Below are positions 34-44,253 of a DNA stretch of 64,000 nucleotides, piece after piece (position 1 is the stretch's first letter; each line of letters begins with the position of its first letter). The stretch is taken from UHGV virus genome UHGV-0026213, one strand, 5' to 3'. The position numbers and the translations under genes were made by a program. This DNA comes from a virus. Under the pieces are notes generated by a model. That model did no database searches. It was not told where the DNA came from and was given only the letters and a program-made list of their open reading frames with translations.

Positions 34-900
34 TTGGAAAAGGCTATGATTGACATTTATACCGATTACGCCGCCGTTCTTACCGTCAATCGTGCGGAAG
101 AACGTGCTGCGCCTTTCCTGGACTTAGTAACGCTGTGCATGGATTACGGTTACGATGTTGCGCTAAGCGATGTGTATTGGCAACCGTCGTCTGATCCTGC
201 CGACGAAACCGTAAGACTGGAAGGGATTATTGTAAAATGTGCCGTGGCGTTAGGCAACCGTTTAGGCGTCGCTTTAAACCCACAAGAAGTTTTCCGTAAA
301 CCGAAAGAGACCGTGCGTATTCTGGATGGCATTACGTCTAAATTCGAAGAGTTCGAAGACACCGATACGCTATACGGTCTCGTGATGTCTGGAGAGACGC
401 CAGAGTTTATCCTGGAAAGTATCTGCCGTTACGTATACGGCGATGACAATATCCATTTTGAAGATTTGGTCATTCGTGTTTCACCCCGTGTAATGACAGT
501 GATGCGTAACTATCTCTCAGCTATGGTTGTGGATGAACAACTCGCAGTAGGTAACGATGCACGTCTGTCACGTATTGCAGAATACTTGCGCCTTTATCCG
601 CAAAACCCCTCTGCGTTCGTATTCCTAAACTTACCTGAAGATCCTGATTTGACGGTTGTCCAACAATCGTTAGTGTTTGATGTCGAAGATTACAGCGAAA
701 CAGAATTACTCGAGATGTATACGGTAGGACTTTCGATTATCGATAACGATGAATTCGATGACGCGTATGCCGATCTTTCGACGAACTTAGAGAAACTTAA
801 TAATGATGGGTTACAACCCATTACTGTTTTACAACCTGCATTAAAAAGCCTACGGCTGATTTATCAGGTTGAGGAGGCAGAGCACGATGACGAGGTTTGA
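34..900 (+). CDS. hypothetical protein (start ambiguous; frame is open to window edge, candidate ATG at 46)
   Basis: Long ORF in six-frame track; acidic C-terminus; 3' end overlaps RBS GAGGAGG and start of next gene. Confidence 0.5.
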   Translation: MEKAMIDIYTDYAAVLTVNRAEERAAPFLDLVTLCMDYGYDVALSDVYWQPSSDPADETVRLEGIIVKCAVALGNRLGVALNPQEVFRKPKETVRILDGITSKFEEFEDTDTLYGLVMSGETPEFILESICRYVYGDDNIHFEDLVIRVSPRVMTVMRNYLSAMVVDEQLAVGNDARLSRIAEYLRLYPQNPSAFVFLNLPEDPDLTVVQQSLVFDVEDYSETELLEMYTVGLSIIDNDEFDDAYADLSTNLEKLNNDGLQPITVLQPALKSLRLIYQVEEAEHDDEV

Positions 901-2188
901 GTTCTTAGTAGCGGCATGTAAAGCAGAAGCTTGGCGTCGATTGGTTTGGCGTATTGCTATTTTTAACATGTCGGTGTTTCCAACAGGGCGCGAAGAACCC
1001 GAAGTGTTTGATATAACGTATATCGATGGCTTACCGCATTATTACGCTGTAGAAGACGGTAAGGGCAGTTGGGAACCGATTACTGACGGTGTAAAGGACC
1101 AGGAGCTGTTTGTCCCTGAAGAACAGTTCGAGCTACGCCCTGACGATTATCCCGGTTTAGACGGTCCTATTCCCACGACAGTAGGACGATACGTTTTTAA
1201 CTGGATTGTTATCTGGTATGCATTTGGTACACGCTTACCCTATCTGGCGATTTCACAAAACCCGTTGGAATATCGCAAAGAGATGCATCGGCGTTGCTTA
1301 GACCATGAAACCGATGAGCCAGAAAATGAAGGTGCAATCCGACCGAGTATGATTGAGCGCTTTGTAAGCGGCTTACACGAACTCGCGCCACTTACGTCAG
1401 GTATTGCACCAACAGGTACGTTACGAAGCCTCACGGTGCATCCTGATGCGTATAAAATCCGCGATGCGTTACTGTTGAAGCACAAAGACGAGTTAGACGA
1501 TCCTGCCGTTATCGTTAAGATTGAAAAAGCGCTGGATGAGTTAGATAAAGAGTGGTTGTCGGGTGACCAATCTATTGAGTTTTATAACTCGCCGAAATCG
1601 CGGATGCGTCGACGTAAATTAATGCTGATGTACGGTATTGAATCGTCTTTTCAGGAAGGGGGTCATTATACGCTCATTCCGAACGCATTAGTTGAAGTTG
1701 ATAAGGCGGGGATGGAAAACCTGGTCGCGAAATTCAACTCTATTCGTGAAGGTTCGTTCTCTCGTGGTGCGGAAACAGCGAAAGGGGGTGAGCAGGTACG
1801 TATTATCCAGATGATTTTCCAGAACCACCGAATCGTCCCTGGTGACTGTGGAACGAAACTAACGTATCCGGTTGTGATTACCGATGATAACGTAAAACGT
1901 TACGTTGGGATGAATGCGATGGTTAATGGTAAACTGACACCACTGACTGAGGAATATTTAAAACAGCAGTTAGGTAAAGTGGTGCGGTTACGCCGACCCA
2001 TCTTATGTCAGTATGGCCACATCGACACCTGCACAGCGTGTTCGTCTGCGAATAAAGGGGAAGAACCTCGCGCAATCGCTGCGGATATATCCTCGGCGTT
2101 CTCTAACGTTATGTCCGTGGCAATGGCCGCGATGCACGGTAAAGAGACAGTGGTACACGAATTTAATCCATCGATCCACATTACGTAA
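887..2188 (+). CDS. hypothetical protein; weak resemblance to multisubunit RNA polymerase motifs (tentative)
   Basis: RBS GAGGAGG 9 nt upstream of ATG 887; motifs SQNPL..HRR..VHP and C-x8-C-x2-C near C-terminus; no canonical NADFDGD or PIETPEG motif. Confidence 0.5.
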   Translation: MTRFEFLVAACKAEAWRRLVWRIAIFNMSVFPTGREEPEVFDITYIDGLPHYYAVEDGKGSWEPITDGVKDQELFVPEEQFELRPDDYPGLDGPIPTTVGRYVFNWIVIWYAFGTRLPYLAISQNPLEYRKEMHRRCLDHETDEPENEGAIRPSMIERFVSGLHELAPLTSGIAPTGTLRSLTVHPDAYKIRDALLLKHKDELDDPAVIVKIEKALDELDKEWLSGDQSIEFYNSPKSRMRRRKLMLMYGIESSFQEGGHYTLIPNALVEVDKAGMENLVAKFNSIREGSFSRGAETAKGGEQVRIIQMIFQNHRIVPGDCGTKLTYPVVITDDNVKRYVGMNAMVNGKLTPLTEEYLKQQLGKVVRLRRPILCQYGHIDTCTACSSANKGEEPRAIAADISSAFSNVMSVAMAAMHGKETVVHEFNPSIHIT

Positions 2189-2201: not shown

Positions 2202-2711
2202 ATGGCAACTAAAGATATTTCGACACAAGATGAACGCCCATCAGCGGTAAGACGCGCTGAGGAAAATGCGGTAACTTACAGTCAGGATGATGCGTACCAG
2301 GTGCGACTTATTGCTACTCAGCTCGATGAGGCTGGCGGGGCAATTAGCCAAAATAAACCGAAAGATACCCCAGAAGCTGACGACGCTTTCCGTAAGCTGC
2401 ATCAATCGTTCCGTACGTTATTTGAACTGCGCGGCCAAGCATTCATTGATGCGTTCAACGTGTTCGTTGAAGCTGCAATTAAACACAAACGTGGTATCTT
2501 CTACTATCCGAATGTGAACTACCATTTAGATTGGTTTTACGATTCCGCTGAACGTGAAACATACGTCGTGTTTATCAACATGTTAGTACGTTTCGCAAAT
2601 TCTCAGGATAAAGCAAACTTTGCTCAGCGTGACAACGTTGGACGTTTGGTACAACGTGTGACCGATCCAGAGCTGCAACACTTACTGGCTTACTGCTTCA
2701 ACGCGGCATAA
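2202..2711 (+). CDS. hypothetical protein
   Basis: 169-codon ORF followed by hairpin terminator at 2716. Confidence 0.55.
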   Translation: MATKDISTQDERPSAVRRAEENAVTYSQDDAYQVRLIATQLDEAGGAISQNKPKDTPEADDAFRKLHQSFRTLFELRGQAFIDAFNVFVEAAIKHKRGIFYYPNVNYHLDWFYDSAERETYVVFINMLVRFANSQDKANFAQRDNVGRLVQRVTDPELQHLLAYCFNAA

Positions 2712-2715
2712 AAGT

Positions 2716-2758
2716 ATTACCCTACTCCCGAAGGAGTAGGGTAACGTTTATTTTTTTT
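2716..2758. terminator. bidirectional intrinsic terminator between convergent genes
   Basis: Hairpin ATTACCCTACTCC-CGAA-GGAGTAGGGTAAC then T-run; A-run on other side. Confidence 0.7.
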
Positions 2759-4538
2759 ACTTTGCAGCTTTGATATATTCAAAAGGATCGGTAATTGTTT
2801 CTCCTTGTCTACGTAGAAAAGCTTCTAAGACGTCGTTTTTATCGGGCAACAGGAAGAAATCTGTCGCGATTTCCATTGCATTGACACGCCCCGCAGTAAG
2901 GTTAATACCGACACGACGCCGTACCTCTTCAGGAACACCGTGAATGCTCAGTAGCTCGATTAACGTTGTTTCACGAGACTGGTTCATCATGTTCGTTGCA
3001 GATGGGTATGCCTGGGTTAAGTCAGCATCCGCAGTTTGCCCACGGAAAGCCGTGTAGAAATCATCAACTTCCTTGATGATGTTTCGTAGCCCATTCTCTG
3101 CGTTCATACACGCAGTCAATGTAACAATCCAACCATCCGTCCCAATGACTTCATTGTCGAAATCGTTACGCATCGCGCTACCCACACAACCGATAACCAG
3201 ACCCTGTTCATAGAGGTAATACGTGTATGCAATACAGATTCGCTTCGGTAGAGAAGGGAAAATATCATACATCGAATAACCCGCCAAAACTGAAATAGCA
3301 GAAGACAGATCGTTCGTCTTTTTATCCAGCAGAACAATCATCAAGTTATCGAAGATGTTATAAACGCAGTATTCTAACGGGAAATCTTTCTGCGCCTTTA
3401 AGTGCCATTCCAACTTTTCCTCGTAGGGCAGTTCTGGTAAGTCCAACTTGTTTAAACCCAACTCGGTTTCCAGTATCGCGTTAAGTTTGTAAGAGGGGCG
3501 TTGTCCCTCGTGTACACGCAATGAACGGAATAGACACATCGCATCTACACAGTAGAATGACGCCGTACAATAAAGAATGTGCCACTGTTGCGAAGGCGCT
3601 TTTGTTAATGATTTTGATTCCGTTTTCTTCGATGCTTCGTCTTTCTTAAAGTAGACACGACGGTACTGTTTTGGCACGTCAGGATGACAGAAGACGTCTT
3701 CCGGTGGAATCCCCGCAGCTTCTAAAGCTTCCAACATACGTGAAATATCGAACTCGTGGTTCCATGCGACGAGTAAGTCAGGAAGCCGAGGATGGATTTC
3801 TTCAAACATCCGTTGAATACAACAACCAGAATTGAGGCATTCGTAAACGAAGATTTTGTAACCATCAATAACGTTTTTGTATTTAACGATGGGGTTGTCG
3901 TTCTCGTCTTTTCCACGAAAAGCGATTTTAGAAAGCAATTCCTGAGCACGTTTGACGAGTCGCGCTTCAAAGTTTTCACGCCCACAACGAGTGACGTAGT
4001 CTTTCGTAGCAAAGAAATGAATTTCGTCGTCTAAAACAAAACTCATAATCCAGGGGTCTCGAGATTTGTCTTCTTCTCGAGTTTCCACGTCGTATACACA
4101 GATGCGGTTAGGTGAAACAGCATTAGGCCATTTACGTATGTACTTTTCTTTAATCCAGCTAGTAATAGGCAAATCAGCCCAGTAAACATACGGTGAAGTA
4201 CAAACCTGACGGAGTGGTTTCTTTTTATCGGGAAAACGAATCCCCAGACCCATCTGTATGGTTGAGGACATCATTACATCCGTTGTTAAATATTCCTGGC
4301 ACTTACTACGTTCTTCGTATTCTTTCTTTTCCTTGTGGTTACGATGCTGTGGTAAAGTAATGTAGATGGGCCGTTTCAGATTTTCACGCATGACAATTCG
4401 TGGGATATATCTGCCATCTTTAGTATGGACGACCTCCTTTATGAGCACGAAGTCGTTTTCTTTCTGCTGATCGGTTGCGTAAGAAACAAACTTGCACTCC
4501 TTGGCAATAACGTCTTCCGGTGCGTAATAGTTATTCAT
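2757..4538 (-). CDS. DEDDy 3'-5' exonuclease domain protein with family-B DNA polymerase-like Exo I/II/III motifs (possible exonuclease part of a split DNA polymerase)
   Basis: Motifs YDVETRE (Exo I), WNHEFD (Exo II), YNIFD (Exo III) at polB-like spacing; no polymerase motifs A/C seen; start chosen at MNNYYAPE (4538) rather than upstream ATG at 4652. Confidence 0.55.
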   Translation of the reverse strand: MNNYYAPEDVIAKECKFVSYATDQQKENDFVLIKEVVHTKDGRYIPRIVMRENLKRPIYITLPQHRNHKEKKEYEERSKCQEYLTTDVMMSSTIQMGLGIRFPDKKKPLRQVCTSPYVYWADLPITSWIKEKYIRKWPNAVSPNRICVYDVETREEDKSRDPWIMSFVLDDEIHFFATKDYVTRCGRENFEARLVKRAQELLSKIAFRGKDENDNPIVKYKNVIDGYKIFVYECLNSGCCIQRMFEEIHPRLPDLLVAWNHEFDISRMLEALEAAGIPPEDVFCHPDVPKQYRRVYFKKDEASKKTESKSLTKAPSQQWHILYCTASFYCVDAMCLFRSLRVHEGQRPSYKLNAILETELGLNKLDLPELPYEEKLEWHLKAQKDFPLEYCVYNIFDNLMIVLLDKKTNDLSSAISVLAGYSMYDIFPSLPKRICIAYTYYLYEQGLVIGCVGSAMRNDFDNEVIGTDGWIVTLTACMNAENGLRNIIKEVDDFYTAFRGQTADADLTQAYPSATNMMNQSRETTLIELLSIHGVPEEVRRRVGINLTAGRVNAMEIATDFFLLPDKNDVLEAFLRRQGETITDPFEYIKAAK

Positions 4539-4609
4539 GATTTCACTCTCAAATCTAGCGGCTGCTATACTGATTTGTGGGTAATGTAATTTCTCAAAAG
4601 GAAACACAA

Positions 4610-5944
4610 ATGGGATATTGGCAAAATCACATTGCATCAGTTGCGGATGCAAAGGTTGTAGCCGCAGAATCGATTAAATTCCAAGACAAAAAGAAGCTGG
4701 CAGAATTGGCTGATGTTATTGCTAAGTTTCGTGGTGCAGGCGATTTCAGTCCTGCAGGCTACGAAAGTGCCGGGGTTTCGGATTGGGTATTTAAGAATAT
4801 CGGCATTACGATTCACTTTAAGAACGGTAGCGAATTGGGTCTTGTTGACGTTGCTTTTGCAGGCGTGGAACCACCGAAATTGGATGCAAACAGTCCAATC
4901 ATTGCATCGATGACTCGCGCACTGTACGCAGGTAACAAAGACCTGGATATGTACAGTAAGTTCATCAAAGAAAACGAACTGAACACATCAATCGATGACA
5001 GCAGTGCAAAAATCAGTGGCGATTTAAGCAAAGTGGGTTCTCCGCTTTATCTTACCCCGGTGCTGCTGGAAAAATTAAATCTGACCGATCTGGAAATCGC
5101 CTCGGTGATTCTTCATGAAGTCGGCCACATCTATTATTATTTCCGTACGCTAATGCGTACCGTGGTGACTGATTTGCTGACAGATGCTGCGGCTAACCGC
5201 ATCATGGAAACAGAAGACCAAACTGTCCGCTTGCGCATTGTTAAAGACGTAGAGAAGATGCTGAACACGAAAGTGAATCAGCCGGAAACGATTTGTACCG
5301 AGTACAAAAAAGAAAACGTCTACATGCACTTAGTCACGCAGTTGTTATTAGATCGCCCGTTCATTAGCGGTAGTCAAGGCTTTGCTAACAGAACGTGGGA
5401 ACGTGCTGCGGATGATTTTGCTTCCCGTTTCGGAGGCGCTCCTTATCTGGCTTCTGCACTGTATAAAATGGAAACCAGTTCGTTCTATTTGCTGCGGAAC
5501 TCAGCGTATATGAACATGGGTGTCCATTTGACGGTAGAACTTTTCCGCGTGACTGCGCTGATAGTCTCTTCTACGATTCCAATTATTCCAGTGATTTCCG
5601 TGACGTTCGGAATGATCTTAAATGACCCGGATAACACCATTTACGATCCGCCGCAGCAGCGTTTTGAGGCAATGCGACGTACACTCGTTGAAGAACTCAA
5701 TACGATTAAAGACAAAAATACGAAAGCGGCTAACGAGCAACGTAAACGTATTTTAGATGGTATTGCGGTTATCGACAAGTTATTAGAAACCGTAAAAGAT
5801 AAAGATAACTTGTACCAGTTTATCTGGAATACTTTAACGCCGAAGGGTCGTCGCTCACGTGCTGCTGTTGATTATCAGCGTGCGATTGGGAAGTATATGT
5901 CGAACGATCTTCGTATTGCTTCAGCCATGTTTAATGTCGAATAA
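4610..5944 (+). CDS. putative zinc metallopeptidase-like protein (HEVGH motif) with hydrophobic C-terminal segment
   Basis: HExxH motif ILHEVGHIYY; hydrophobic stretch VTALIVSSTIPIIPVISVTFGMIL; start at MGYWQ after RBS-like GGAAACA. Confidence 0.45.
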   Translation: MGYWQNHIASVADAKVVAAESIKFQDKKKLAELADVIAKFRGAGDFSPAGYESAGVSDWVFKNIGITIHFKNGSELGLVDVAFAGVEPPKLDANSPIIASMTRALYAGNKDLDMYSKFIKENELNTSIDDSSAKISGDLSKVGSPLYLTPVLLEKLNLTDLEIASVILHEVGHIYYYFRTLMRTVVTDLLTDAAANRIMETEDQTVRLRIVKDVEKMLNTKVNQPETICTEYKKENVYMHLVTQLLLDRPFISGSQGFANRTWERAADDFASRFGGAPYLASALYKMETSSFYLLRNSAYMNMGVHLTVELFRVTALIVSSTIPIIPVISVTFGMILNDPDNTIYDPPQQRFEAMRRTLVEELNTIKDKNTKAANEQRKRILDGIAVIDKLLETVKDKDNLYQFIWNTLTPKGRRSRAAVDYQRAIGKYMSNDLRIASAMFNVE

Positions 5945-11075: not shown

Positions 11076-12373
11076 CAGTTATTACCTGTCGGTAGTGAAG
11101 CGGCATTAGCATTATCCAGTAATCCCGCTTTCTTGAGAATATGTTGGTAGTCTGCCTGGTAAACATACCAGGTAAGTTTGCGTCGTACGGAATCGATGTG
11201 CGGATAACCGTAATAGTTAAACAACGGCAGCAATTGTGGCGCGATGGGGACTAATTGATCACTAGCAATTGGGATGAAGTTGCCCGACTGGATAGAACCG
11301 GGTTGCGGTAACATATCTGGATTAAAAATGGAAACGGTGCGGTTAAACATTTCCATGTATAGCGGATCGTTAAACCGTGCTCCGATAGCTTGCCAGTTAA
11401 TAGTAATCGTAACGTCGTCGTTTAACTGCGGTTTGGAGTTATCAACGTTCGCCATTTGTCCTGCGTTATCGTTCATCGGCCAAGCGACACAAATCGTCCA
11501 GAAACGGGTGATGTTCCCTAAGGCATCGTAACGCATCCCGTAGATTCGCGATTGATAATCGATTCTGCGTTGAATGGAGTTACGCATTTTCGGACGGAAT
11601 TTACCCATCTTCACACCAGACATATACTCCAGCCACACACCCATCATTTTCATTAATGGGTCGCCATAGGGGTTGTTTAATGACATGCTGATGGAAAAGC
11701 TGTTGTTAACTTCGTGGGTAGAGTCAACCATCCCCCACTGTTCACGCATTAAACCTTCACTTGCCATCCAGTTATCAATAGATTGATCGGGTGCACCACT
11801 AAGGCTAATCAGTTGCGTACTGAGTATTGGTATGAACGCTTGTAGATTATCGAATTTTACTTGAGGCATAAACGGCGTACCTAAGCGATTCTTCCGTCTG
11901 CCGTTTTCCATAGGTGCGTCTGTAAACCCGAGTTCAAAATCGGGGTCAAGCGCAGCTAATATCGAATAATCTATGGAGTCCTTTGGCTGCATTGCCATGT
12001 TCGACATTTTACGAGACTTAGCAATGTTGTCGTAGCACAGGTTAAAATCGGGCCGGGTAATAAAAGTTAGTCCACCGTATTCTCGGTTGATTGGCGTGGG
12101 GTTAGACGCCATCATATGGTTGAACCCCATGTAGGGGTTGGTCAAACGCTGCGCAGCAAGACCCAAACCTACAGTAAGACGGATACGATCGTTCCATGCC
12201 GTAAGTTCAGTATTAGCGTCGTATGGCGTCGGGGGGTTAGCATTACTAATCCGTCCGTCGAAATACCCTGCGACCGAAGGCACTGCGTCCGCGTTATTCG
12301 GATTGTGGAGAGAATCGTCGTAATCAGTATTCGGGTCATACCCCGGATCGTTCTTATCTGTCTCGTCACTCAT
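11075..12373 (-). CDS. hypothetical protein (432 aa)
   Basis: Minus-strand ORF with RBS GGAG before ATG at 12373. Confidence 0.5.
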   Translation of the reverse strand: MSDETDKNDPGYDPNTDYDDSLHNPNNADAVPSVAGYFDGRISNANPPTPYDANTELTAWNDRIRLTVGLGLAAQRLTNPYMGFNHMMASNPTPINREYGGLTFITRPDFNLCYDNIAKSRKMSNMAMQPKDSIDYSILAALDPDFELGFTDAPMENGRRKNRLGTPFMPQVKFDNLQAFIPILSTQLISLSGAPDQSIDNWMASEGLMREQWGMVDSTHEVNNSFSISMSLNNPYGDPLMKMMGVWLEYMSGVKMGKFRPKMRNSIQRRIDYQSRIYGMRYDALGNITRFWTICVAWPMNDNAGQMANVDNSKPQLNDDVTITINWQAIGARFNDPLYMEMFNRTVSIFNPDMLPQPGSIQSGNFIPIASDQLVPIAPQLLPLFNYYGYPHIDSVRRKLTWYVYQADYQHILKKAGLLDNANAASLPTGNN

Positions 12374-12399
12374 CTTTAACTCCGGAGTTCATTAGGAAA

Positions 12400-13506
12400 A
12401 TGTTAGAAAAAACGTTTGAGACAAGCGTTGTCTCTTTCCTCTCCAGACTTCCCATGCTGTTTCGTTCACGTGCGGAGTCGATGGAGGAATTTAACTCAGT
12501 GCTCTATAACGAGCACATTACCTTAGTCGAACAAAGCCTGCTGGGTTTAGATTACCTTCCGGGAATTCTGGAGAAAATCCAAATTTTGCTGGCAGGAAAC
12601 CAATTAACGGCTATCTCTCTGTTAACCGGTGTACCGGATGTTGACATTATCGGCACATTGGATCAGGTCAGTACACGTCGTAGTGCACTTGATAACGCAG
12701 TCCGCAGCGGTTCCCGCTTAGCAGCGCTTGCAGTCGGCGAATCTGCCCGTTATGGTTTACCATCATACGATAAAATCGGCATTGCAGTCGGCGAATCTTC
12801 CCGACGGGTCGCCCAGGAATCAAAAGGTTCGGTCAGTGGCGGGAAAGGTGATCCGATTAAACAGCTTTTCGATCAAGAAGGGTTGTCCAACGGGAAAATG
12901 TTCTCAGTAACATTCGAACGTGACGGTAATAAAGTCGAACTCCCAATGCGTTTACGTTTGGATGTGAAATCCTTACCGACCGAACAAATTGAAACACTGA
13001 TTGCGTTCAGTGACCAGACGAAAACATTCTGGGAACGTTGGCTGCGTGCACGCGTTGGCGCGTTGAGTTACGTAAAAGACATTGCGTTCTGTAACGACCT
13101 GGTAGAAGAATATCGTAAGAACCGTTATCGCGATAAGTCCGGTTATTACCGTAAGATGATGGAGAAGAAGAACGGTAACTGGTTGTCTGGTCTGCTGTCT
13201 TTGGCACCGTCAATCAATAACGCTTCTTCCGTTATGGTGGTTTCTCAAGACACCATCGACGGTTTGACCGCACAGCTAGGTGGCGAATTTGACGATTTCA
13301 ATATCCGTCAGCGTGTGTTCAAAGACACCTTGACCGTCTACTACGTTGTTGTGGACACCACCTGGAATCGTGTCACTATTTATACCCGTGGTCAGAACGG
13401 CTCTCAGGAACTCGATAAATCTGACTTTAGTAAATCGAAGTCTGGTAGCGCCGATGTAAATAAAATCATCGAAGCGTATCGCTCTGGCGCTCAGCCAGTT
13501 CTTTAA
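12400..13506 (+). CDS. hypothetical protein with short internal duplication
   Basis: RBS AGGAAA; near-identical 20-nt repeat at 12731 and 12784 encoding AVGESARY/AVGESSRR. Confidence 0.5.
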   Translation: MLEKTFETSVVSFLSRLPMLFRSRAESMEEFNSVLYNEHITLVEQSLLGLDYLPGILEKIQILLAGNQLTAISLLTGVPDVDIIGTLDQVSTRRSALDNAVRSGSRLAALAVGESARYGLPSYDKIGIAVGESSRRVAQESKGSVSGGKGDPIKQLFDQEGLSNGKMFSVTFERDGNKVELPMRLRLDVKSLPTEQIETLIAFSDQTKTFWERWLRARVGALSYVKDIAFCNDLVEEYRKNRYRDKSGYYRKMMEKKNGNWLSGLLSLAPSINNASSVMVVSQDTIDGLTAQLGGEFDDFNIRQRVFKDTLTVYYVVVDTTWNRVTIYTRGQNGSQELDKSDFSKSKSGSADVNKIIEAYRSGAQPVL

Positions 13507-13516
13507 GGGGTAAGGC

Positions 13517-14452
13517 ATGGCAATCCCGAATATGCTCGCTATGTTGTTGCCGAGCTTTGAAGCAACAAACTTGAAAAACCAACTCTCATCAAACTGCGAT
13601 GCGATTGGTGAACAACTTTTACCGCGTTTCCAGTCTCTGCAAGAGCTGGTAGCGTCGAAAGAAGGCAAGCCGTTTAAATCGAAAACGGTGCAGGACATGT
13701 CGGATGATTTGGTTAAATACCTGCGGAATTCCGGTCTGGAAGCCAAAGGTCTCCGTAATCCTTCGATGCTGGAATACATCGTTGCCTCGATGGAAAACAC
13801 GCTACAATTGCGTTCTTTCTTAGACCAATGTATTACGCGTGACATTGGTAAAGCGTTAGTCACGTCTTCAATGACGTTTAATAAATTAACGGTGCTCAGA
13901 CTGCTTGACCTGATTGACTTCTTTACAGGTTACAGTGCCACCTTACTTAACTACGTAACCGCAGAAGAAATAGCCGCCGTAGAAGGCTCGAATATTGAAG
14001 TAAAAGGCGTCGGTCCGAATGACCTTCAATACCTCAATACTCGTTCTATTTCTTACTGCATTGCTGTCCGTGTGCTGGCAACGCCGCTGAATAAACTGAA
14101 AGCGGATTATGCGGAAATTCCTGAAGCGATCTTTAACGACGAAACTTACGGTGAGTTGGCGCAACAGTTCGGTTCGAGCTCCGTTGACCCACTGGGAATG
14201 AGCAGTGTACCGTTCCCAATCTCGCTGATATTGCGCGTACGTTTGAATATCGCTGAACGGCAGATGGATAAGTACGACGAGTGTGTAGAAGCGGCGAAAG
14301 CGGCGGAACTGCGTATCTTACTTTACAAAAAGCAAGTCGCAGAAGGTAAGGGTGATGCCCACATTGAGAAACTGATTGAAATCAGTGAAAAGCATCTGAT
14401 GGAACTCAAGCACAAGCGTGAGCGTCTTGAAAAGAAATACGGTTTAGCGTAA
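13517..14452 (+). CDS. hypothetical protein
   Basis: 311-codon ORF in same-strand cluster. Confidence 0.5.
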   Translation: MAIPNMLAMLLPSFEATNLKNQLSSNCDAIGEQLLPRFQSLQELVASKEGKPFKSKTVQDMSDDLVKYLRNSGLEAKGLRNPSMLEYIVASMENTLQLRSFLDQCITRDIGKALVTSSMTFNKLTVLRLLDLIDFFTGYSATLLNYVTAEEIAAVEGSNIEVKGVGPNDLQYLNTRSISYCIAVRVLATPLNKLKADYAEIPEAIFNDETYGELAQQFGSSSVDPLGMSSVPFPISLILRVRLNIAERQMDKYDECVEAAKAAELRILLYKKQVAEGKGDAHIEKLIEISEKHLMELKHKRERLEKKYGLA

Positions 14453-14469
14453 ACCGTTAGGAGAGGCGA

Positions 14470-15030
14470 ATGTTTGAGCACGATAGTCCTGAATTTAATG
14501 TTGCTGTAGAGCGCATTAAATCCTACATGTCGATTTTATCGAAAAACCCAATCGACACACACGATGACGAGGTTATTCACAAAACACTGGAAGCCGCCGC
14601 CGTTATTTTACCGTACTTTCGTCTGATGGCTGCTGATTCTTTGCAGCAAGTATTATATGACGAATATCCGCAGGTCGGATTTACCTTTAATACGTTTTAT
14701 AACGAAAGTGTAGATTTCTTGCTGGATGGTAAGCGACGTAATGTGACGTTAGGGCAGTGGTCGACTTTGCTGTCGTCGTATATGAACGATGTTCGTAACA
14801 CGAAGAATGTTGAACAGACGGGTGCATTAGGCTCGCGTCTATTAGCTGCTGCGTTTGGTCGCCGAGGTACTGTACGTAATATGGGCTCTGCTCACCAATC
14901 TGTTGAGTGTAGCAAACGTCTTTTATCTTATGCAGACCATGAACTGCTGGCACGCTGGATGACGCGCCCGAACGGGTTGTCCGACATGATCTCGTCGTTA
15001 GCAGTGTTTTTGAAAATCGCACGTCCCTAA
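14470..15030 (+). CDS. hypothetical protein
   Basis: 186-codon ORF with RBS GGAGAGG. Confidence 0.5.
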   Translation: MFEHDSPEFNVAVERIKSYMSILSKNPIDTHDDEVIHKTLEAAAVILPYFRLMAADSLQQVLYDEYPQVGFTFNTFYNESVDFLLDGKRRNVTLGQWSTLLSSYMNDVRNTKNVEQTGALGSRLLAAAFGRRGTVRNMGSAHQSVECSKRLLSYADHELLARWMTRPNGLSDMISSLAVFLKIARP

Positions 15031-28111: not shown

Positions 28112-29674
28112 TCAAAAGAGTTCGTCACCCATGCCGCCGGTAAATACGTTAATCGACGAGGCTGTTACAGTTTCTTCTTTATCACAATCCCACGGCAAAA
28201 TGCCAACATCACGGAAAGGTATTACAGTATAATGATAAGCTTCTTTGGTATCAATAATGGTACGGTGTTTACCGCGTTGTACTTCTAAATAGCTGTGTCC
28301 GCTGACGACACGTTTGTTAAAATACATCTCACCGTCAGCTTCGTTGTCTAAGCTAGAACAGTTGTCGTAAAGACCACGACCAGGTAAGCTCTTACAGAAA
28401 CTTGCTGGGTCGAGTGCTTTTAATTTTTTGCCTTCAGGTGAGATTTGGTGTGGTGCTAAGAGGAAACCACGATTACGTACCACTTGGATGTTTCGCGCGA
28501 TACGATAAATTTCTTTAATGTCACTACCCGCAATACCGTTACCGTGTCCTGCTTTGCTGATAGTACCGAAATAGTCTCCGCGTATTCCAGCTACATGATA
28601 ACCTCGACGTTTTAAATCTAAAATCAAATCATTCAAATAGTGAATTTTAAAATCGGAGTTTGTGTGTTTTTGGAAAATATACTCCCAACCGTTTGCCCGC
28701 ATTTTACTACAGAGGTAATCTGACATTTGTGCATTGTGTAGCGCTTTTTCTTCGTCAGTTGCCGTTTCAGGTGCAACCATTACCGGAGCTGTACCTTCAA
28801 AGTGTCCGTAAAGTGCTTGATACGCGTAAGCCAAGTTAACATCTAATTCGTTTTCTAAACTTAAATCCAGAATAACCGGCTGTAAGTCACCTTTAACATT
28901 TGCCATCACCTTTTCTGGGGTGTTGAATACAGGAATGCTAATAGAGAGCAATAAACTGAATAATGACTTACAGTTAAAAGGAAGAGCAGGCATCAGCCAG
29001 AGTTCTTCGGTGATCCCTTTGTTACAGCCAAGCATTTGGTTAATTGCTTTCCACCCCGTACGCAACCCGTTCCCTGCCGCTTTCTTACTGATAGAGTCGA
29101 ATACATGTACGAAGGGTGCTTTATTGTCAGTAATCAATTCCCCTACCAGAGAAGGAATCTTATTATGAGAGCGTTCACTGAACGTGGATAAGGTATCCTT
29201 AAGGTCGTTGAGCGCCGTTTGTAAATCAACACGCGTTTCAGTGCCGTTCAGTGCGCCTAACGTACGACCCAATTTTTGTTTCAGTTGTACGCCTTGAATA
29301 GCTTGACGTAACTGAAAGTAGTATTGTGCTACTTGGCGATTAAGATGCTCGATGCGTGCTTCTGGTTCTTCTGGAATATCATCTTCCAGGAATTTGGTAA
29401 TCGTATCGTATAGAGGACGTATTTGCGTAGTGGCCAGTTTCAAACGTTTCATGACGTTTGTGTGGTCGTAAGGCATACCGCCGTCTATGATGGATGTGAT
29501 GATATCCTTGATTTCGACGAGGGCGGCACGTTCGTCACCTTCTTCTGCGTAATCAGGAAGCTTAGCCTCTAACAGCACTTTTCTTATGATGTCGTGGTCC
29601 TTTTCAGGATCGGTCAGAAGACTTTCAGCGTATAATGTGGCTAAGGCGGTTATCAACATCATTTTGTTATTCAT
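28112..29674 (-). CDS. hypothetical protein (520 aa) with hydrophobic N-terminus
   Basis: Minus-strand ORF adjacent to capsid candidate; N-terminal MLITALATLYA may be a signal peptide. Confidence 0.5.
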   Translation of the reverse strand: MNNKMMLITALATLYAESLLTDPEKDHDIIRKVLLEAKLPDYAEEGDERAALVEIKDIITSIIDGGMPYDHTNVMKRLKLATTQIRPLYDTITKFLEDDIPEEPEARIEHLNRQVAQYYFQLRQAIQGVQLKQKLGRTLGALNGTETRVDLQTALNDLKDTLSTFSERSHNKIPSLVGELITDNKAPFVHVFDSISKKAAGNGLRTGWKAINQMLGCNKGITEELWLMPALPFNCKSLFSLLLSISIPVFNTPEKVMANVKGDLQPVILDLSLENELDVNLAYAYQALYGHFEGTAPVMVAPETATDEEKALHNAQMSDYLCSKMRANGWEYIFQKHTNSDFKIHYLNDLILDLKRRGYHVAGIRGDYFGTISKAGHGNGIAGSDIKEIYRIARNIQVVRNRGFLLAPHQISPEGKKLKALDPASFCKSLPGRGLYDNCSSLDNEADGEMYFNKRVVSGHSYLEVQRGKHRTIIDTKEAYHYTVIPFRDVGILPWDCDKEETVTASSINVFTGGMGDELF

Positions 29675-30224: not shown

Positions 30225-32519
30225 ATGAAAGATACCCGAATCTCTAATCTGGAGAAACTCGTACAAGCTGGTAACTCGCTGGTACAAAGCGTCATTAGTA
30301 ACAACAGTGCTGGCGAAATGTGGAACACCATCGTTGCCGGTGAATCTGTACGTAGCAACACGAAAGTTTTTGGTACCCTGCGTGACGATGCTGCACAGCA
30401 CTACGCAAACGCGTTTGCTGGCGGCAAGAAAATGTCCCACGCTGCGGAAGTTGCTTCTGCAATGATTCTGGGTGCTGCTGGTCACGGTATGGACCTGCAA
30501 GAAAAAGTAGCGCAAGAATACGCTAAACCAGAATTCCATAGCCGTTTTAACCTGGACGTTGCGATTCCTGGTTCCCAAGCTGGTAACGGCGACTGGGGCA
30601 AAGATCGTATGGTTGTTGCTCAGGAATACTACACCAACAAAGATTACGACAAAAACCTGGGTCTGACCTGGACGCTGAACGTACGTGCTCTGGAAACTCA
30701 GTCTCGTTTCGCTGAGACTCTGTTCCCGACCATCACCGTTGACACCAATGACGTTGGTATTACCGTACGTACCAAAGTGACCACCGTTTCTCGTGGTGTC
30801 ATGCACGCGTTACTGACCAAAGACGTTGTTGAAGATCATCGTCGTAACCTGCACGAAGCGCTGACTGACCACACCGTTCTTCAGGACGAAGCGATCAACA
30901 TCGTTCCTTATGTAATGGAAACCGGTGAAAACGCTGAATACTTCGTAAGCGAAGATCTGGTACCGAACGAATCTGTTCGCCTGGGTCGTGTACCTCCGTA
31001 CCCGACTAACTACCTGAGCTTTGCTAAAGACACTCTGAACCTGTTCCAGCTGTCTGCGCATCCGGGTATCGTTCAGGAAGGTTACGACGAAACTGATGAA
31101 ATCGCACCGGGTTGTGCTCTGGGCAGCCTGCTGATTTCCGTACGTAAACCGACCGAAGAAGCGAAAGCAGGTAAATTCATTAAACTGCACGTTCGTGACA
31201 TGCAGTTCGCAACCTTCCAGCGTCCCGCTGAAGGTGACGGCCGTGAGCTGGTTCTGCAATTCCGTCGTACTGCGTTCTCTCTGAATGCGAAAACTACCGA
31301 CTGGACTGGTGCGGCTATTCCGGCACTGCAAGCGCTGGGTCAGAACTCCTACACCCTGCGTTATGTGATCACCATCAACATGTCTCTGTTCACTACCGGT
31401 CAGTTCGGTGGTAAAGTTGACATCGCTGGTCACAAACTGGAAATCGAAGGTCTGTACGATGCTACCGGTAACAAAGTTGATACCAAATCTGGTACCGGCA
31501 AAGTTATCCTGGACGGTCTGAAACTTGAACTGATGGGCTGGCGCTTCGATGGTACTCGTACCAACGAAAACCGTCGTACCCAGGGTCTGCTGCTTGACCC
31601 AATCTGGGAACAAGAAAACTACAAACTGCAATACGGTTCTCCGATCCTGACCAAGTCTCCGGTTGGCGTTGAATACGACGATACCGAACGTCTGGACGAC
31701 CTGATTTCCGCAGTTAACATCCGTAACGAACAGCTGGCTATCACTCAGACGCTGTCTTACACCGAAGCGGTACGTAACGCTGCTGCAAGCATGATCACTC
31801 CGTGGGACAAACCGGCCATTCGTGGTCTGGGCCGTCACTGGGTTGCTCCGTGGTTCAAAGAGTCTGACTACAACGTTGATGAAGTTGTACAGTCCCTGGA
31901 TACCAAAGATGCACTGATCAACGCTCGTCAGGGCCTGGTACAGCGTATCGGTAATCAGGTAACTCAGGCTATCCAGGAATCTCGCTTCATTCCTGCGCTG
32001 CGTCTGTACACTGCCGATCCGGACATTCTGCCGAAAGTTGTTATTGCAACTGACGAACCGACTGCATCTATGCTGCTGCTGGTACAGGGCGACCAACGTC
32101 TGCTGGGCGATCGCTACGAATACGAAGTGATCACCACCAACGATGACCGCTGGCGTATCTACAACGCAGCTGACGGTTCCTGGACTCGTCGTCTGCAATG
32201 GTTCCTGAAAGTTCCGACTGCGGACGATGGTTCCTACAACGTGCTGAACTGGGGTAACCACTTCTGGTCTCCGATCATGGTTACCAACATCAACATTCAG
32301 CGTAACGGTTCTACCTCTAAAGAGCTGGCCGTACAGCCGCGTAACGCGCACATCTGCCACTGCCCGATCACTGGTCTGATCTGGGTTAAAGGTATCACCA
32401 AACTGGTTGAAGAAAAACTGGCTTACAATGTTTCTGTTGAACAGAACGGTCAGAAACAAACCGAAGGTGGTGTAGCAGGTAACGTTGCTGGCGAAGGCAA
32501 AGCTGCTGCTGGTAAGTAA
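30225..32519 (+). CDS. putative major capsid protein (764 aa)
   Basis: Very strong codon bias; size typical of phiKZ-like capsid proteins; N-terminal region has several A-x-E motifs (AQE twice); strong terminator at 32535. Confidence 0.55.
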   Translation: MKDTRISNLEKLVQAGNSLVQSVISNNSAGEMWNTIVAGESVRSNTKVFGTLRDDAAQHYANAFAGGKKMSHAAEVASAMILGAAGHGMDLQEKVAQEYAKPEFHSRFNLDVAIPGSQAGNGDWGKDRMVVAQEYYTNKDYDKNLGLTWTLNVRALETQSRFAETLFPTITVDTNDVGITVRTKVTTVSRGVMHALLTKDVVEDHRRNLHEALTDHTVLQDEAINIVPYVMETGENAEYFVSEDLVPNESVRLGRVPPYPTNYLSFAKDTLNLFQLSAHPGIVQEGYDETDEIAPGCALGSLLISVRKPTEEAKAGKFIKLHVRDMQFATFQRPAEGDGRELVLQFRRTAFSLNAKTTDWTGAAIPALQALGQNSYTLRYVITINMSLFTTGQFGGKVDIAGHKLEIEGLYDATGNKVDTKSGTGKVILDGLKLELMGWRFDGTRTNENRRTQGLLLDPIWEQENYKLQYGSPILTKSPVGVEYDDTERLDDLISAVNIRNEQLAITQTLSYTEAVRNAAASMITPWDKPAIRGLGRHWVAPWFKESDYNVDEVVQSLDTKDALINARQGLVQRIGNQVTQAIQESRFIPALRLYTADPDILPKVVIATDEPTASMLLLVQGDQRLLGDRYEYEVITTNDDRWRIYNAADGSWTRRLQWFLKVPTADDGSYNVLNWGNHFWSPIMVTNINIQRNGSTSKELAVQPRNAHICHCPITGLIWVKGITKLVEEKLAYNVSVEQNGQKQTEGGVAGNVAGEGKAAAGK

Positions 32520-42838: not shown

Positions 42839-42845
42839 GAGAATC

Positions 42846-43373
42846 ATGGCATATCGTGTCGATTTAACGAAAGCACCTAAACAAATTTTAGTAGACCGGA
42901 TTAACTACGTATTTAGTCTATCCTATACTGCTGATAACATCGAGTTTAACGCAAACGGCGTTCAACCACTAACTTTAGCAGAACGTCAACGTTACGGACT
43001 AGAATCAAAGGTTGCTGCCGTCTTCCGTAACGGCGTTGTCGGTAACCAGGAATTCATTTTAACTCGCGTTGATTTGGCAACGTTCCTGGCCGATGAACCG
43101 GTGAGTGTACCGAAAGGCGCAGTAACGTCCAGCGAGGAGTTGGCTGATTATATCGTTGCGCAAACAGGGATTGACCTGCGTGCCGACGACATTATGATTG
43201 AGCCGATTTCAGAGGAGCTGGATTCTTATGATGTTCGTCTCGTCCCGAATCATTTGTCTTTTAAAGGAACGATTCCGGTCGTATTTACTGATTCCACCCC
43301 ACGCAAATTGGCGTCTCTTGTGACGAAATTAGCGTTGGATGGGTTCCGCCCAGGAGAATTAATCAATGTCTAA
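42846..43373 (+). CDS. hypothetical protein
   Basis: 175-codon ORF; overlaps next gene start. Confidence 0.5.
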   Translation: MAYRVDLTKAPKQILVDRINYVFSLSYTADNIEFNANGVQPLTLAERQRYGLESKVAAVFRNGVVGNQEFILTRVDLATFLADEPVSVPKGAVTSSEELADYIVAQTGIDLRADDIMIEPISEELDSYDVRLVPNHLSFKGTIPVVFTDSTPRKLASLVTKLALDGFRPGELINV

Positions 43374-44253
43374 TGTCAAAGTTTACGACGGTAAACTCTC
43401 GACGGTAACGCTTAATGCGATGCGTTTGGCTACCGCATTAATTACCGGTGCTGACGTGCAATACCCGCAAAAATCCACACTGAATGAGTTCTATAAACTC
43501 ATGCAAACACCAGTGCCGGACGGTAAAGCGCGTCCTCATTTGCAGTACATGGCAATTGGCAACCGTGGCCATATGGTCGACACCTCTGATGTGGTGGCTG
43601 ACGTTGTGCCTGTAGGTAAAGAACCTATTGCTTCCGGGATGTTTTCCCGCGTTCCGTTTGTCCTGCGTACAAAAGACAATGATCTGTCTGACGAACAACG
43701 TAAGAACTACGCTTTTCGTACTTTGGAAACGTTTAACAAACGCGAATACTGGGCGTATTATTTAAAACGCATCGACATGCGCGCTGTAAAAACCACCGAT
43801 TACGATATCAGGCGTGAGAACGGTGTTGAGACCGTCGAAGACTTTGTGTACACAGACACGGAATTAAACCCCGTACCGAAAGTATTGCCGGACTACGATT
43901 ACGACGACGATGGCACCGTTGCAATCCCAGATGGCCGTTATGTGGAGTCAGGTGCTGACCTGGTTATTCCGTGGACAGACTTTGATGTTCAGGAATATAT
44001 GAACGTAACGAGCATTATGCGTGGTAGCCCGCGTAGTTCAATTATCTCTGAACTGGCACTCTGCTCAGGGTTAGACCAGGTCGCGTCCGGGGATTCTGCA
44101 ACTGGGTCTAAATTCAGCTATAACGAGGCGATCGGTGTTCAGGCGTTGTACTATATTTCGATGTTTACCAACCTGGCACAGACGAATGACAAATTGTCTT
44201 TGACCATTCGTATCGGACAGCCTGCACCGTTCTTCCTGGGGACAGCTAACTGA
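43366..44253 (+). CDS. hypothetical protein
   Basis: 295-codon ORF; coupled to downstream gene. Confidence 0.5.
   Translation: MSNVKVYDGKLSTVTLNAMRLATALITGADVQYPQKSTLNEFYKLMQTPVPDGKARPHLQYMAIGNRGHMVDTSDVVADVVPVGKEPIASGMFSRVPFVLRTKDNDLSDEQRKNYAFRTLETFNKREYWAYYLKRIDMRAVKTTDYDIRRENGVETVEDFVYTDTELNPVPKVLPDYDYDDDGTVAIPDGRYVESGADLVIPWTDFDVQEYMNVTSIMRGSPRSSIISELALCSGLDQVASGDSATGSKFSYNEAIGVQALYYISMFTNLAQTNDKLSLTIRIGQPAPFFLGTAN

What the first reader, a model, noticed from the sequence alone, without database searches (positions are those of the whole stretch)
2757..4538. PolB-type DEDDy exonuclease without polymerase motifs, possibly half of a split DNA polymerase
Exo I (YDVETRE), Exo II (WNHEFD) and Exo III (YNIFD) motifs occur at family-B spacing, but the remaining ~200 C-terminal residues show no motif A (DxxSLYPS) or motif C (YGDTDS). 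Either the replicative polymerase is split with the palm domain encoded elsewhere, or this is a stand-alone proofreading or processing exonuclease.
Basis: partly seen in the sequence, partly recalled or inferred. Interest (0 to 1): 0.5.

Follow-up and report, generated by a model that had tools for sequence, protein, structure and literature searches.

The report
N-terminal half of split phage DNA polymerase
This gene encodes the already-described N-terminal subunit (proofreading exonuclease plus the first catalytic polymerase motif) of the two-piece family-B DNA polymerase that all nucleus-forming "phiKZ-like" jumbo phages use, so it is a real but ordinary, known feature.

Summary
The ORF is real: window 2757..4538, minus strand, 593 aa. 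The claim of "no polymerase motifs" is wrong. Motif A is present as DLTQAYPS (aa 506-513, window 3023..3000), matches RB69 gp43 D411-LTSLYPS, and lies in the best-conserved part of the protein. Motifs B and C are absent.

The window comes from an SPN3US/Erwinia-phage-like chimallivirus (phiKZ-like jumbo phage). The protein matches PHROG 3011 "DNA polymerase" end to end (E 1.8e-250). Profile comparison (hhalign 96.9%, E 1.8e-10) and predicted fold (Foldseek E 4e-13) both point to RB69 gp43, residues about 106-431.

The partner (fingers, motif B, motif C SDTDS, thumb; Pfam PF20286 "divDNApol") lies about 27 kb away in the SPN3US and Asesino genomes. That places it outside this window. It co-occurs with the N half in about 300 phage genomes.

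A split-subunit polymerase in phiKZ-like phages has been recognised since 2012. A 2026 preprint reports a cryo-EM structure of the phiKZ DNAP-N:DNAP-C 1:1 complex.

Verdict: already known, low interest. The "stand-alone exonuclease" option and "palm encoded elsewhere" are not.

The parts
2757..4538 (-). Complete gene for the N-terminal subunit (DNAP-N) of the split family-B DNA polymerase. 593 aa, ATG at 4538, stop codon at 2757-2759.
   Evidence: ORF list. PHROG 3011 'DNA polymerase', E 1.8e-250, covering 573 of 576 profile positions. 75% aa identity to the SPN3US gene annotated 'DNA polymerase' at 41224..43008. Homolog lengths support the ATG at 4538.
4116..4538 (-). N-terminal domain, aa 1-141 (boundary approximate).
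   Evidence: AF2 model has pLDDT above 88 throughout. It lies upstream of the first residue aligned to the RB69 exonuclease domain, query 142 = RB69 106. The whole model matches RB69 gp43 over about 470 columns.
3309..4115 (-). 3'-5' DEDDy proofreading exonuclease domain, aa ~142-410. Exo I is at 4094..4074, Exo II at 3764..3747, Exo III at 3362..3348.
   Evidence: hhalign against RB69 gp43 residues 106-~340. hmmsearch against PDB chains. D150, E152, Y393 and D397 are invariant and N260 and D264 nearly invariant.
3180..3308 (-). Return segment of the N-terminal domain, aa ~411-453, equivalent to RB69 ~340-382.
   Evidence: hhalign columns. pLDDT is 83-91. The RB69 domain limits come from established knowledge of the RB69 structure, not from a tool result.
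2961..3179 (-). First part of the polymerase palm, aa ~454-526. It contains motif A, DADLTQAYPS...NQSRETT (motif A core at 3023..3000).
   Evidence: Aligned to RB69 ~383-431 including D411/Y416/P417. D504, D506, Y511 and P512 are invariant and this is the best-conserved region of the protein. pLDDT is below 50 when folded alone.
2760..2960 (-). Lineage-specific helical C-terminal tail, aa 527-593. Inferred to be the docking element for the C-terminal subunit.
   Evidence: It has no counterpart in the RB69 alignment, which ends at query 526. It is a conserved segment (RRRxGINLTxGRVNAxEIA; N553 invariant). The docking role is inference only.
2716..2745 (.). GC-rich 13-bp-stem hairpin with T runs on both sides, lying between the convergent stop codons at 2711 (+) and 2757 (-). 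Probably a bidirectional intrinsic terminator that ends the DNAP-N transcript.
   Evidence: Terminator scan found it on both strands. Sequence read directly. This is a consensus match only and function is not shown.

Best explanation
The gene encodes DNAP-N, the N-terminal subunit of the two-subunit family-B replicative DNA polymerase of chimalliviruses (nucleus-forming, phiKZ-like jumbo phages).

DNAP-N supplies four things:
- the N-terminal domain;
- a complete, probably active, DEDDy 3'-5' proofreading exonuclease;
- the first strand-helix of the palm, with motif A (catalytic Asp D506, steric-gate Tyr Y511);
- a lineage-specific helical tail.

The partner DNAP-C supplies the fingers (motif B), a large helical insert, the motif C Asp pair (SDTDS), the KxY motif and the thumb. 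In SPN3US and Asesino, DNAP-C is encoded about 27 kb away on the other strand, which places it outside this window.

The polymerase active site is therefore composite. It exists only when the two proteins associate non-covalently.

Shown here: homology, motif content, conservation, genomic separation and co-occurrence.
Taken from the literature: stable 1:1 complex formation and polymerase activity, for the phiKZ orthologs.
Inferred: that the tail of DNAP-N and the head of DNAP-C form the clasp, and that the exonuclease is active.
For: - PHROG 3011 'DNA polymerase' matches end to end, E 1.8e-250.
- The window is collinear with SPN3US, whose ortholog RefSeq annotates as DNA polymerase.
- The family profile matches RB69 gp43 in three colinear segments that include Exo I-III and motif A. 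hhalign gives probability 96.9%, E 1.8e-10, query 142-526 = RB69 106-431.
- The AF2 model (pLDDT 80.5) has RB69 gp43 as best PDB match (Foldseek E 4e-13, ~470 columns), followed by Pol epsilon.
- All exonuclease and motif A catalytic residues are invariant or nearly so in homologs down to 29% identity.
- The SPN3US C half matches Pfam PF20286 'Divergent Family B DNA polymerase' at E 4.6e-284. Its weak PF00136 match starts only at profile position 98 of 453.
- The C half has motif C SDTDS, fingers/motif B aligned to Pol zeta, and RB69 gp43 as best fold match.
- The N half occurs in 300 phage records and the C half in 302, with identical genus counts for the main genera.
- In Asesino both halves are present, 27.7 kb apart on opposite strands.
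- No fused version of 1300 aa or more was seen among the listed hits (63 N-half, 120 C-half).
- In relatives where a group I intron interrupts the gene, the downstream exon still encodes motif A in frame after splicing.
- Literature: 'split subunit DNA polymerase' identified about ten years after phiKZ was sequenced (PMC5105663, citing Cornelissen 2012). The phiKZ DNAP-N:DNAP-C stable 1:1 complex has a 2.1 A cryo-EM structure homologous to B-family polymerases and shows primer extension activity (PMC13648687, abstract).
Against: - The C-terminal subunit of this particular phage was not seen. It lies outside the window, and I could not fetch the relevant stretch of the matching ~224 kb metagenome contigs.
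- Pfam and NCBIfam have no model that hits DNAP-N.
- Sequence-only links of the C half to RB69 are weak (hhalign probability 3.6-13%).
- Iyer et al. 2021 (PMC7824862) described the exonuclease protein as a possible stand-alone associate of a polymerase that lacks a fused exonuclease, not as a carrier of motif A.
- Only the abstract of the cryo-EM preprint was available, so I could not confirm from the structure which subunit contributes the motif A strand.
Confidence: 0.93

Rival explanations
1. It is a stand-alone proofreading or processing 3'-5' exonuclease. It may associate loosely with a self-sufficient polymerase encoded elsewhere, as DnaQ/epsilon does, but contributes nothing to the polymerase active site.
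For: - The exonuclease and N-terminal domains fold confidently on their own (pLDDT above 90 for aa 1-450).
- Iyer et al. 2021 phrase it roughly this way.
- No Pfam DNA_pol_B hit in this ORF.
Against: - Motif A (D504xD506...Y511P512) is invariant in all 37 homologs and lies in the most conserved part of the protein. It aligns to RB69 D411-Y416-P417.
- The partner's weak PF00136 match starts only at profile position 98 of 453, and no DxxSLYPS-like motif was found in the partner.
- The palm fragment is not confidently folded alone.
- The phiKZ orthologs form a stable 1:1 core complex (PMC13648687).
Confidence: 0.04
2. The two halves are joined covalently after translation by a split intein, as in the Nanoarchaeum equitans PolB, so the mature enzyme is a single chain.
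For: - Split-intein PolB genes exist in archaea (recalled from knowledge, not tested here). An intein-associated split PolB was reported in jumbo phage MIJ3 (PMC6892783).
- Mobile elements do target this gene: there is a group I intron in relatives.
Against: - No Hint/intein Pfam domain hits in either half.
- After motif A, the DNAP-N tail has no Cys or Ser in an intein N-terminal context and is conserved as helices.
- The only HN dipeptide in the head of DNAP-C is followed by Val (sequence), not by the Cys, Ser or Thr that protein splicing needs.
- The preprint describes two subunits in a 1:1 complex (PMC13648687).
Confidence: 0.01
3. It is a decayed pseudogene fragment of an ancestral full-length polymerase, with no function.
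For: It lacks motifs B and C, and Pfam and NCBIfam do not recognise it.
Against: - It is a full-length intact ORF, conserved from 95% down to 29% identity at constant length in hundreds of phages, with every catalytic residue retained.
- The exact protein sequence recurs in 104 blocks of public assemblies.
- DNA polymerases are listed among the chimallivirus core genes (PMC10299810).
Confidence: 0.01

Closest known systems
PhiKZ DNAP-N (N-terminal subunit of the chimallivirus split B-family DNA polymerase; Basu et al. 2026 preprint, PMC13648687) and its SPN3US ortholog (gene at 41224..43008, YP_009153338.1)
   Same: Same protein family. tblastn gives 34% identity over 98% of the length to phiKZ-species phages and 75% to SPN3US. 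Same PHROG (3011). The flanking genes are syntenic with SPN3US. The partner family is the same, PF20286.
   Different: Only sequence divergence. The phiKZ-species protein is longer (638 aa, with an insertion). This phage is a new, uncultivated relative of Seoulvirus/Erskinevirus-type phages, at no more than 80% aa identity to any phage in the phage collection. Identical or 95%-identical copies are common in metagenome and enterobacterial isolate assemblies.
RB69 / T4 gp43 (single-chain family-B replicative polymerase)
   Same: The order is the same: N-terminal domain, Exo I, Exo II, Exo III, motif A. The catalytic residues align (D150/E152/D264/Y393/D397 with RB69 D114/E116/D222/Y323/D327, and D506/Y511 with D411/Y416). 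It is the best structural match for both halves.
   Different: gp43 is one 903-aa chain. Here the chain ends about 80 residues after motif A, at a point that corresponds to the palm segment just before the fingers (RB69 ~432-455). Both new ends carry lineage-specific extensions, and the C half has a ~200-aa helical insert. Identity to gp43 is only about 15%.
Split archaeal PolB (Methanothermobacter thermautotrophicus two-gene PolB; Nanoarchaeum equitans split-intein PolB). Recalled from knowledge, not tested here.
   Same: A family-B polymerase whose catalytic core is divided between two separately encoded polypeptides.
   Different: These are unrelated lineages and independent splits. The N. 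equitans halves are ligated by a split intein, and there is no intein here. I did not verify the exact archaeal split positions.
DnaQ / epsilon-type stand-alone DEDD proofreading exonucleases
   Same: The DEDDy exonuclease chemistry sits in a polypeptide separate from most of the polymerase.
   Different: This protein has the PolB N-terminal domain and palm motif A, and belongs to the PolB exonuclease lineage by profile and by fold. It is not a DnaQ-like single-domain protein.

Membership tests
Family-B DNA polymerase, exonuclease module (DEDDy) | Exo I DxE, Exo II Nx2-3(F/Y)D and Exo III Yx3D, in this order, with conserved acidic residues and Tyr | tested here: met
   D150-V-E152, N260-HEF-D264 and Y393-NIF-D397. 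They align to the RB69 motifs and are invariant or at least 90% conserved in 37 homologs.
Family-B DNA polymerase, exonuclease module (DEDDy) | PolB N-terminal plus exonuclease fold | tested here: met
   The AF2 model has pLDDT above 90 over aa 1-450. The top Foldseek PDB hits are all RB69 gp43 (E 4e-13, probability 1.00, ~470 columns), followed by Pol epsilon.
Family-B DNA polymerase, polymerase module | Motif A (DxxSLYPS) with the catalytic Asp and steric-gate Tyr | tested here: met
   D506-LTQAYPS-513 is aligned to RB69 D411-LTSLYPS. D506, Y511 and P512 are invariant.
Family-B DNA polymerase, polymerase module | Motif B (KxxxNSxYG) and motif C (DTDS) in the same polypeptide | tested here: not met
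   Both are absent from this ORF and from the window. They are in the separate C-half protein of related phages (K157..N160 N161..G165, and S-D-T-D-S at 418-422 in SPN3US or 422-426 in P0191). This ORF alone is therefore not a complete PolB.
Chimallivirus split DNA polymerase, N-terminal subunit (DNAP-N; PHROG 3011) | Full-length match to the family profile | tested here: met
   PHROG 3011, E 1.8e-250, protein residues 41-621 of the 631-aa extended ORF against profile positions 2-573 of 576.
Chimallivirus split DNA polymerase, N-terminal subunit (DNAP-N; PHROG 3011) | Genome is a chimallivirus/phiKZ-like jumbo phage (split multisubunit RNAPs, phiKZ-type capsid protein, divergent DnaB) | tested here: met
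   The window holds a vRNAP subunit gene (869..2188, PHROG 2962), an nvRNAP subunit (33723..35498), a major head protein (PHROG 3231) and a DnaB-like helicase (PHROG 3213). Gene order is syntenic with SPN3US. Chimallin itself was not looked for.
Chimallivirus split DNA polymerase, N-terminal subunit (DNAP-N; PHROG 3011) | A separately encoded DNAP-C partner (Pfam PF20286) in the same genome | not testable with these tools
   The partner is outside the 64-kb window. It is present in the closest complete genomes: SPN3US at 11544..13823 and Asesino gp35. It is present in 302 phage records, against 300 with the N half. The relevant part of this phage's own contigs could not be fetched.
Chimallivirus split DNA polymerase, N-terminal subunit (DNAP-N; PHROG 3011) | Forms a stable 1:1 complex with DNAP-C and polymerises DNA | not testable with these tools
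   Reported for the phiKZ orthologs only (PMC13648687, abstract). The low pLDDT of the palm fragment when folded alone is consistent with this but is not proof.
Split-intein polymerase | Hint/intein domain halves at the new C- and N-termini | tested here: not met
   No intein domains in the Pfam scans of either half. The termini lack intein junction residues (sequences).

The most novel reading that the evidence does not exclude
The break in the polymerase may have been created, or may be kept in place, by mobile-element traffic at the motif A coding region. In relatives, a group I intron sits about 25-30 codons upstream of motif A in this gene. The DNAP-N tail (aa 527-593) and the DNAP-C head (aa 1-~95) would then be a dedicated clasp that evolved to hold a composite active site together. 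The placement of the two genes might also allow polymerase assembly to be regulated. They lie 27 kb apart on opposite strands, and the N half sits among virion genes with its own terminator. None of this is excluded by my data, and none of it is shown.
Probability: 0.1. Interest if true: 0.4.

Novelty: already known. Interest (0 to 1): 0.12.

Why it matters
For annotation, the gene should be labelled "DNA polymerase, N-terminal subunit (exonuclease + motif A)" rather than "exonuclease" or "hypothetical protein".

Two practical points follow for genome scans:
- Pfam and NCBIfam have no model for this half, so profile pipelines will keep missing it.
- In related phages a group I intron makes gene callers truncate it at about 480 aa.

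Biologically, the split places one catalytic Asp (motif A) and the other two (motif C) on different polypeptides. That makes the enzyme an obligate heterodimer. This is already the subject of a 2026 structural study of phiKZ, so the present locus adds only another member of the family.

Tried and rejected
- Pfam and NCBIfam scans of the ORF gave nothing usable. Pfam returned only a spurious Integrin_A_Ig_3 match at E 0.19.
- phmmer of the single sequence against PDB sequences gave no hits. The phiKZ complex chains therefore appear not to be in that PDB copy.
- I looked for the partner inside the window in two ways. A six-frame regex search for motifs B, C and KKRY found only chance DTD[SGA]/KK[RK]Y strings outside plausible genes. 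tblastn with the SPN3US C half gave nothing better than E 0.6.
- The PHROG label 'polymerase' on window 33723..35498 looked like a candidate partner. It is a non-virion RNA polymerase subunit, so I rejected it.
- I looked for the RNase H-clamp subunit (Rhc) in the window. Pfam found no RNase H in those ORFs. This remains unresolved, because most window ORFs were not scanned.
- I tried to show the C half on the same contig as the exact window protein. Cluster representatives and members of the C half map to other samples or contigs. The ±10 kb limit does not bridge the ~27 kb gap, so I gave up on this.
- hhalign of C-half alignments against single-sequence RB69 was weak (probability 3.6% and 13%). 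I relied on Pfam PF20286/PF00136, the Pol zeta profile hit and the fold search instead.
- The Cornelissen 2012 paper could not be read because it is not held.
- Visual comparison of the regions upstream of the minus-strand genes showed no shared promoter motif.
- The sigma-70 promoter scan was not above the shuffled expectation: 3 found against 5.6 expected.
Full report
**The locus**

The mechanical ORF list shows one long minus-strand frame, 2757..4652 (TTG start, 631 aa). The closest homolog, P0001, is 95% identical, 593 aa long and covers 100% of the protein read from the ATG at 4538. The other close homologs are 585-600 aa.

The gene lies on the opposite strand to its neighbours. It converges on a 169-aa gene (2202..2711). 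It diverges from a virion-protein gene whose PHROG match begins at residue 12 of the mechanical ORF, which puts that gene's ATG at 4610.

A 13-bp GC-rich hairpin with T runs on both sides lies at 2716-2745, between the two converging stop codons. It was picked up on both strands by the terminator scan.

**The observation**

YDVETRE is at aa 149-155 (window 4094..4074), WNHEFD at aa 259-264 (3764..3747) and YNIFD at aa 393-397 (3362..3348).
- They are not chance strings. An alignment of 37 homologs ranging from 95% down to 29% identity (A1) has D150, E152, Y393 and D397 invariant. N260 and D264 are at least 90% conserved.
- A profile of that alignment hits RB69 gp43 chains in the PDB (E 5e-5). 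The match falls in three colinear segments covering Exo I/II, Exo III and motif A.
- hhalign against RB69 gp43 gives probability 96.9% and E 1.8e-10, aligning query 142-526 with RB69 106-431.
DLTQAYPS at aa 506-513 (window 3023..3000) is an almost literal DxxSLYPS.
  - It is the only match to that pattern in all six frames of the 64-kb window.
  - It aligns to RB69 D411-LTSLYPS, and the following NQSRETT aligns to RB69 NISPETI.
  - D504, D506, Y511 and P512 are invariant in all 37 homologs. The motif A block is the best-conserved stretch of the protein: mean top-residue frequency is 0.67, against 0.50-0.58 for the N-terminal domain, exonuclease domain and tail.
- Motifs B and C are indeed absent.

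**What the window is**

Megablast and tblastn place the window among SPN3US-like and Erwinia jumbo phages, with phiKZ-like phages as more distant relatives. The best phage-collection match to this protein is Erwinia phage Asesino (79.6% aa), and SPN3US is at 75%. PhiKZ-species phages are at 34% over 98% of the length.

The window is collinear with SPN3US from about 38.5 kb onward. It carries the following hallmarks of Iyer et al.'s "group 1" jumbo phages (PMC7824862), now called chimalliviruses:

- a vRNAP subunit gene next door (869..2188, PHROG 2962);
- a DnaB-like replicative helicase (28112..29674, minus strand, PHROG 3213);
- a phiKZ-type major head protein (30225..32519);
- a non-virion RNAP subunit (33723..35498).

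The exact protein sequence is present in 104 blocks of public assemblies, including contigs of about 224 kb.

**Family assignment and fold**

- Pfam and NCBIfam have no model that recognises the protein.
- PHROG 3011, "DNA polymerase", matches end to end (E 1.8e-250).
- RefSeq annotates the SPN3US, phiEaH2, Machina and CR5 orthologs as DNA polymerase.
- An AlphaFold2 model built on A1 has mean pLDDT 80.5 and is sharply divided. Residues 1-450 are mostly above 90, while 454-563 are below 50.
- Foldseek against the PDB returns RB69 gp43 in all top positions (E 4e-13, probability 1.00, ~470 aligned columns), followed by Pol epsilon.
- Using the RB69 domain limits from established knowledge of that structure, the hhalign columns give these approximate boundaries:

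| Residues | Domain |
|---|---|
| 1-141 | N-terminal domain |
| ~142-410 | Exonuclease |
| ~411-453 | Return segment of the N-terminal domain |
| ~454-526 | First palm segment, with motif A |
| 527-593 | Helical tail with no RB69 counterpart |

- The confidence drop falls exactly at the start of the palm fragment. That is what one expects of a piece of β-sheet that needs strands from another chain. This is consistent with an obligate partner but does not prove one.

**The partner**

- SPN3US has a second gene annotated DNA polymerase at 11544..13823 (759 aa).
- It carries VVSDTDS, which is motif C.
- It matches Pfam PF20286 "Divergent Family B DNA polymerase" (E 4.6e-284). Its weak PF00136 match starts only at position 98 of the 453-position profile.
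- A profile of C halves aligns the fingers/motif B region (KNEQNxxKxLNNxxSG) to DNA polymerase zeta. It also aligns the KHYF...EVKGV block to RB69 KKRY...KIMG (weak).
- An AF2 model of a close C half (P0191, pLDDT 85) again finds RB69 gp43 as its best PDB match (E 2.8e-5).
- tblastn of this protein against the window finds nothing. The partner therefore lies outside the window, as synteny predicts. In SPN3US it is 27.4 kb upstream of the N half. In Asesino the two genes are gp35 (12216..14501, +) and gp61 (42176..43966, -), 27.7 kb apart.
- In the phage collection the N half is found in 300 records and the C half in 302. The genus counts are identical for the main genera: Pseudomonas 81, Erwinia 62, Vibrio 23, Serratia 21, Aeromonas 20, Klebsiella 16, Ralstonia 13.
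- None of the listed N-half or C-half hits in the large protein collection is a fused protein of ~1300 aa.

**Mechanism**

The division of labour is as follows. DNAP-N carries the N-terminal domain, a complete DEDDy proofreading site, and the motif A strand-helix with the first catalytic Asp and the steric-gate Tyr. DNAP-C carries the fingers (motif B), a long helical insert, the DTD hairpin (motif C), the KxY motif and the thumb.

The break falls in the short palm segment between the motif A helix and the hairpin that precedes the fingers, roughly RB69 432-455. Both new ends carry lineage-specific extensions: 67 aa on DNAP-N and about 95 aa on DNAP-C. I infer, but have not shown, that these extensions form the interface.

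There is no sign of a split intein. Neither half has a Hint domain, and the termini lack intein junction residues. Association must therefore be non-covalent.

This agrees with the only direct data. The abstract of Basu et al. 2026 (PMC13648687) reports that phiKZ DNAP-N and DNAP-C form a stable 1:1 core complex. Its 2.1 Å cryo-EM structure resembles other B-family polymerases. It is stimulated by a third protein, Rhc, which combines an RNase H domain with a clamp-like domain.

**Comparison with the literature**

- Thomas et al. 2016 (PMC5105663) state that the phiKZ "split subunit DNA polymerase" was identified about ten years after the genome was sequenced. They cite Cornelissen et al. 2012, which I could not read.
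- Iyer et al. 2021 described the C half as a divergent PolB without a fused exonuclease. [quoted passage not shown]
- My analysis adds that the exonuclease protein also carries the invariant motif A, so the palm itself is split. The 2026 structure almost certainly shows this already. The feature is therefore known, and this locus is one more member of the family.

**Seen in related loci**

Six "short" homologs (473-492 aa: P0029, P0041-44, P0060) end at query residue ~472-485. I examined two of their contigs, L027 and L029. In both, the rest of the gene, including motif A (DITQAYPT or DLTQAYPN), resumes about 480 bp downstream in another frame. Rfam identifies the gap as a group I intron (RF00028: 73.3 bits in L029 and 51.4 bits in L027, against a gathering score of 50). 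The window gene has no intron. These short proteins are gene-calling artefacts, not a different architecture. The phiKZ-species gene is a single 638-aa ORF.

**Verdict**

The exonuclease motifs are real and motif C is absent, but motif A is present. The "split polymerase" interpretation is correct. The "stand-alone exonuclease" and "palm encoded elsewhere" readings are not. The feature is already known, so interest is low.

Noticed in passing
L027 6443-6864 and L029 6466-6876 (related metagenome contigs); equivalent site in the window is about 3084-3125: In some relatives a group I intron (Rfam RF00028; 51.4 and 73.3 bits, gathering score 50) interrupts the DNAP-N gene about 25-30 codons upstream of motif A. 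Gene callers therefore report truncated 473-492 aa proteins (P0029, P0041-44, P0060) plus a 105-aa 'orphan' that is really exon 2. The window gene has no intron.
   Followed up: yes
window 2716-2745: A perfect 13-bp GC-rich hairpin (TTCG/CGAA loop) flanked by T runs on both strands. It sits between the converging stops of the 2202..2711 (+) gene and the DNAP-N (-) gene and looks like a bidirectional intrinsic terminator.
   Followed up: partly
window 28112-29674 (-): A DnaB-like replicative helicase (PHROG 3213, E 9e-199). Like DNAP-N, it is a minus-strand replication gene embedded among plus-strand virion and RNAP genes, just upstream of the major head protein gene (30225..32519).
   Followed up: partly
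window 33723-35498 (+): PHROG 2943 is labelled only 'polymerase' and several RefSeq records copy that label. Homologs are annotated as a non-virion RNA polymerase subunit (KTN4, Asesino). The label could mislead a search for the missing DNA polymerase half.
   Followed up: yes
window 869-2188 (+): A virion RNA polymerase subunit fragment (PHROG 2962, 'RNA polymerase beta subunit', E 6e-169) lies about 570 bp from the 3' end of the DNAP-N gene, with one small gene (2202..2711) in between. It is another split-enzyme gene of this phage group.
   Followed up: partly
window 54070-55864 (+): A GNAT acetyltransferase-domain protein (54070..55068) overlaps the start of a D12-class N6-adenine DNA methyltransferase (55049..55864; Pfam PF02086, E 3e-57).
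   Followed up: no
protein clusters P0001 and P0069: Near-identical copies of both polymerase halves are deposited under Escherichia coli, Salmonella enterica and Shigella flexneri isolate assemblies, on contigs of 199-226 kb. Whole jumbo-phage genomes are therefore present in bacterial isolate assemblies, through a carrier state or contamination. The window's exact protein occurs in 104 blocks of public assemblies.
   Followed up: no
L014 2487-2900, L016 2609-3004, L017-L021 (loci around the C half): A small SH3-fold protein gene (Pfam PF20287 SH3DP) sits immediately upstream of every DNAP-C gene examined, as Iyer et al. 2021 noted. Its role in the polymerase is unknown.
   Followed up: no
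window 4632-4652 (-) and 4539-4609: The TTG at 4652 that extends the mechanical ORF lies in a 7-bp hairpin inside the start of the divergent neighbour gene. The true divergent intergenic region is only 71 bp (4539-4609). No sigma-70-like or shared upstream motif stood out.
   Followed up: partly
Salmonella phage SPFM records (P0051-54, P0058, P0061; P0155, P0182): Several SPFM phage GenBank records carry versions of both polymerase halves that align to the query over only 3-23% of its length despite high HMM scores. This suggests frameshift-type sequence errors in those records.
   Followed up: no
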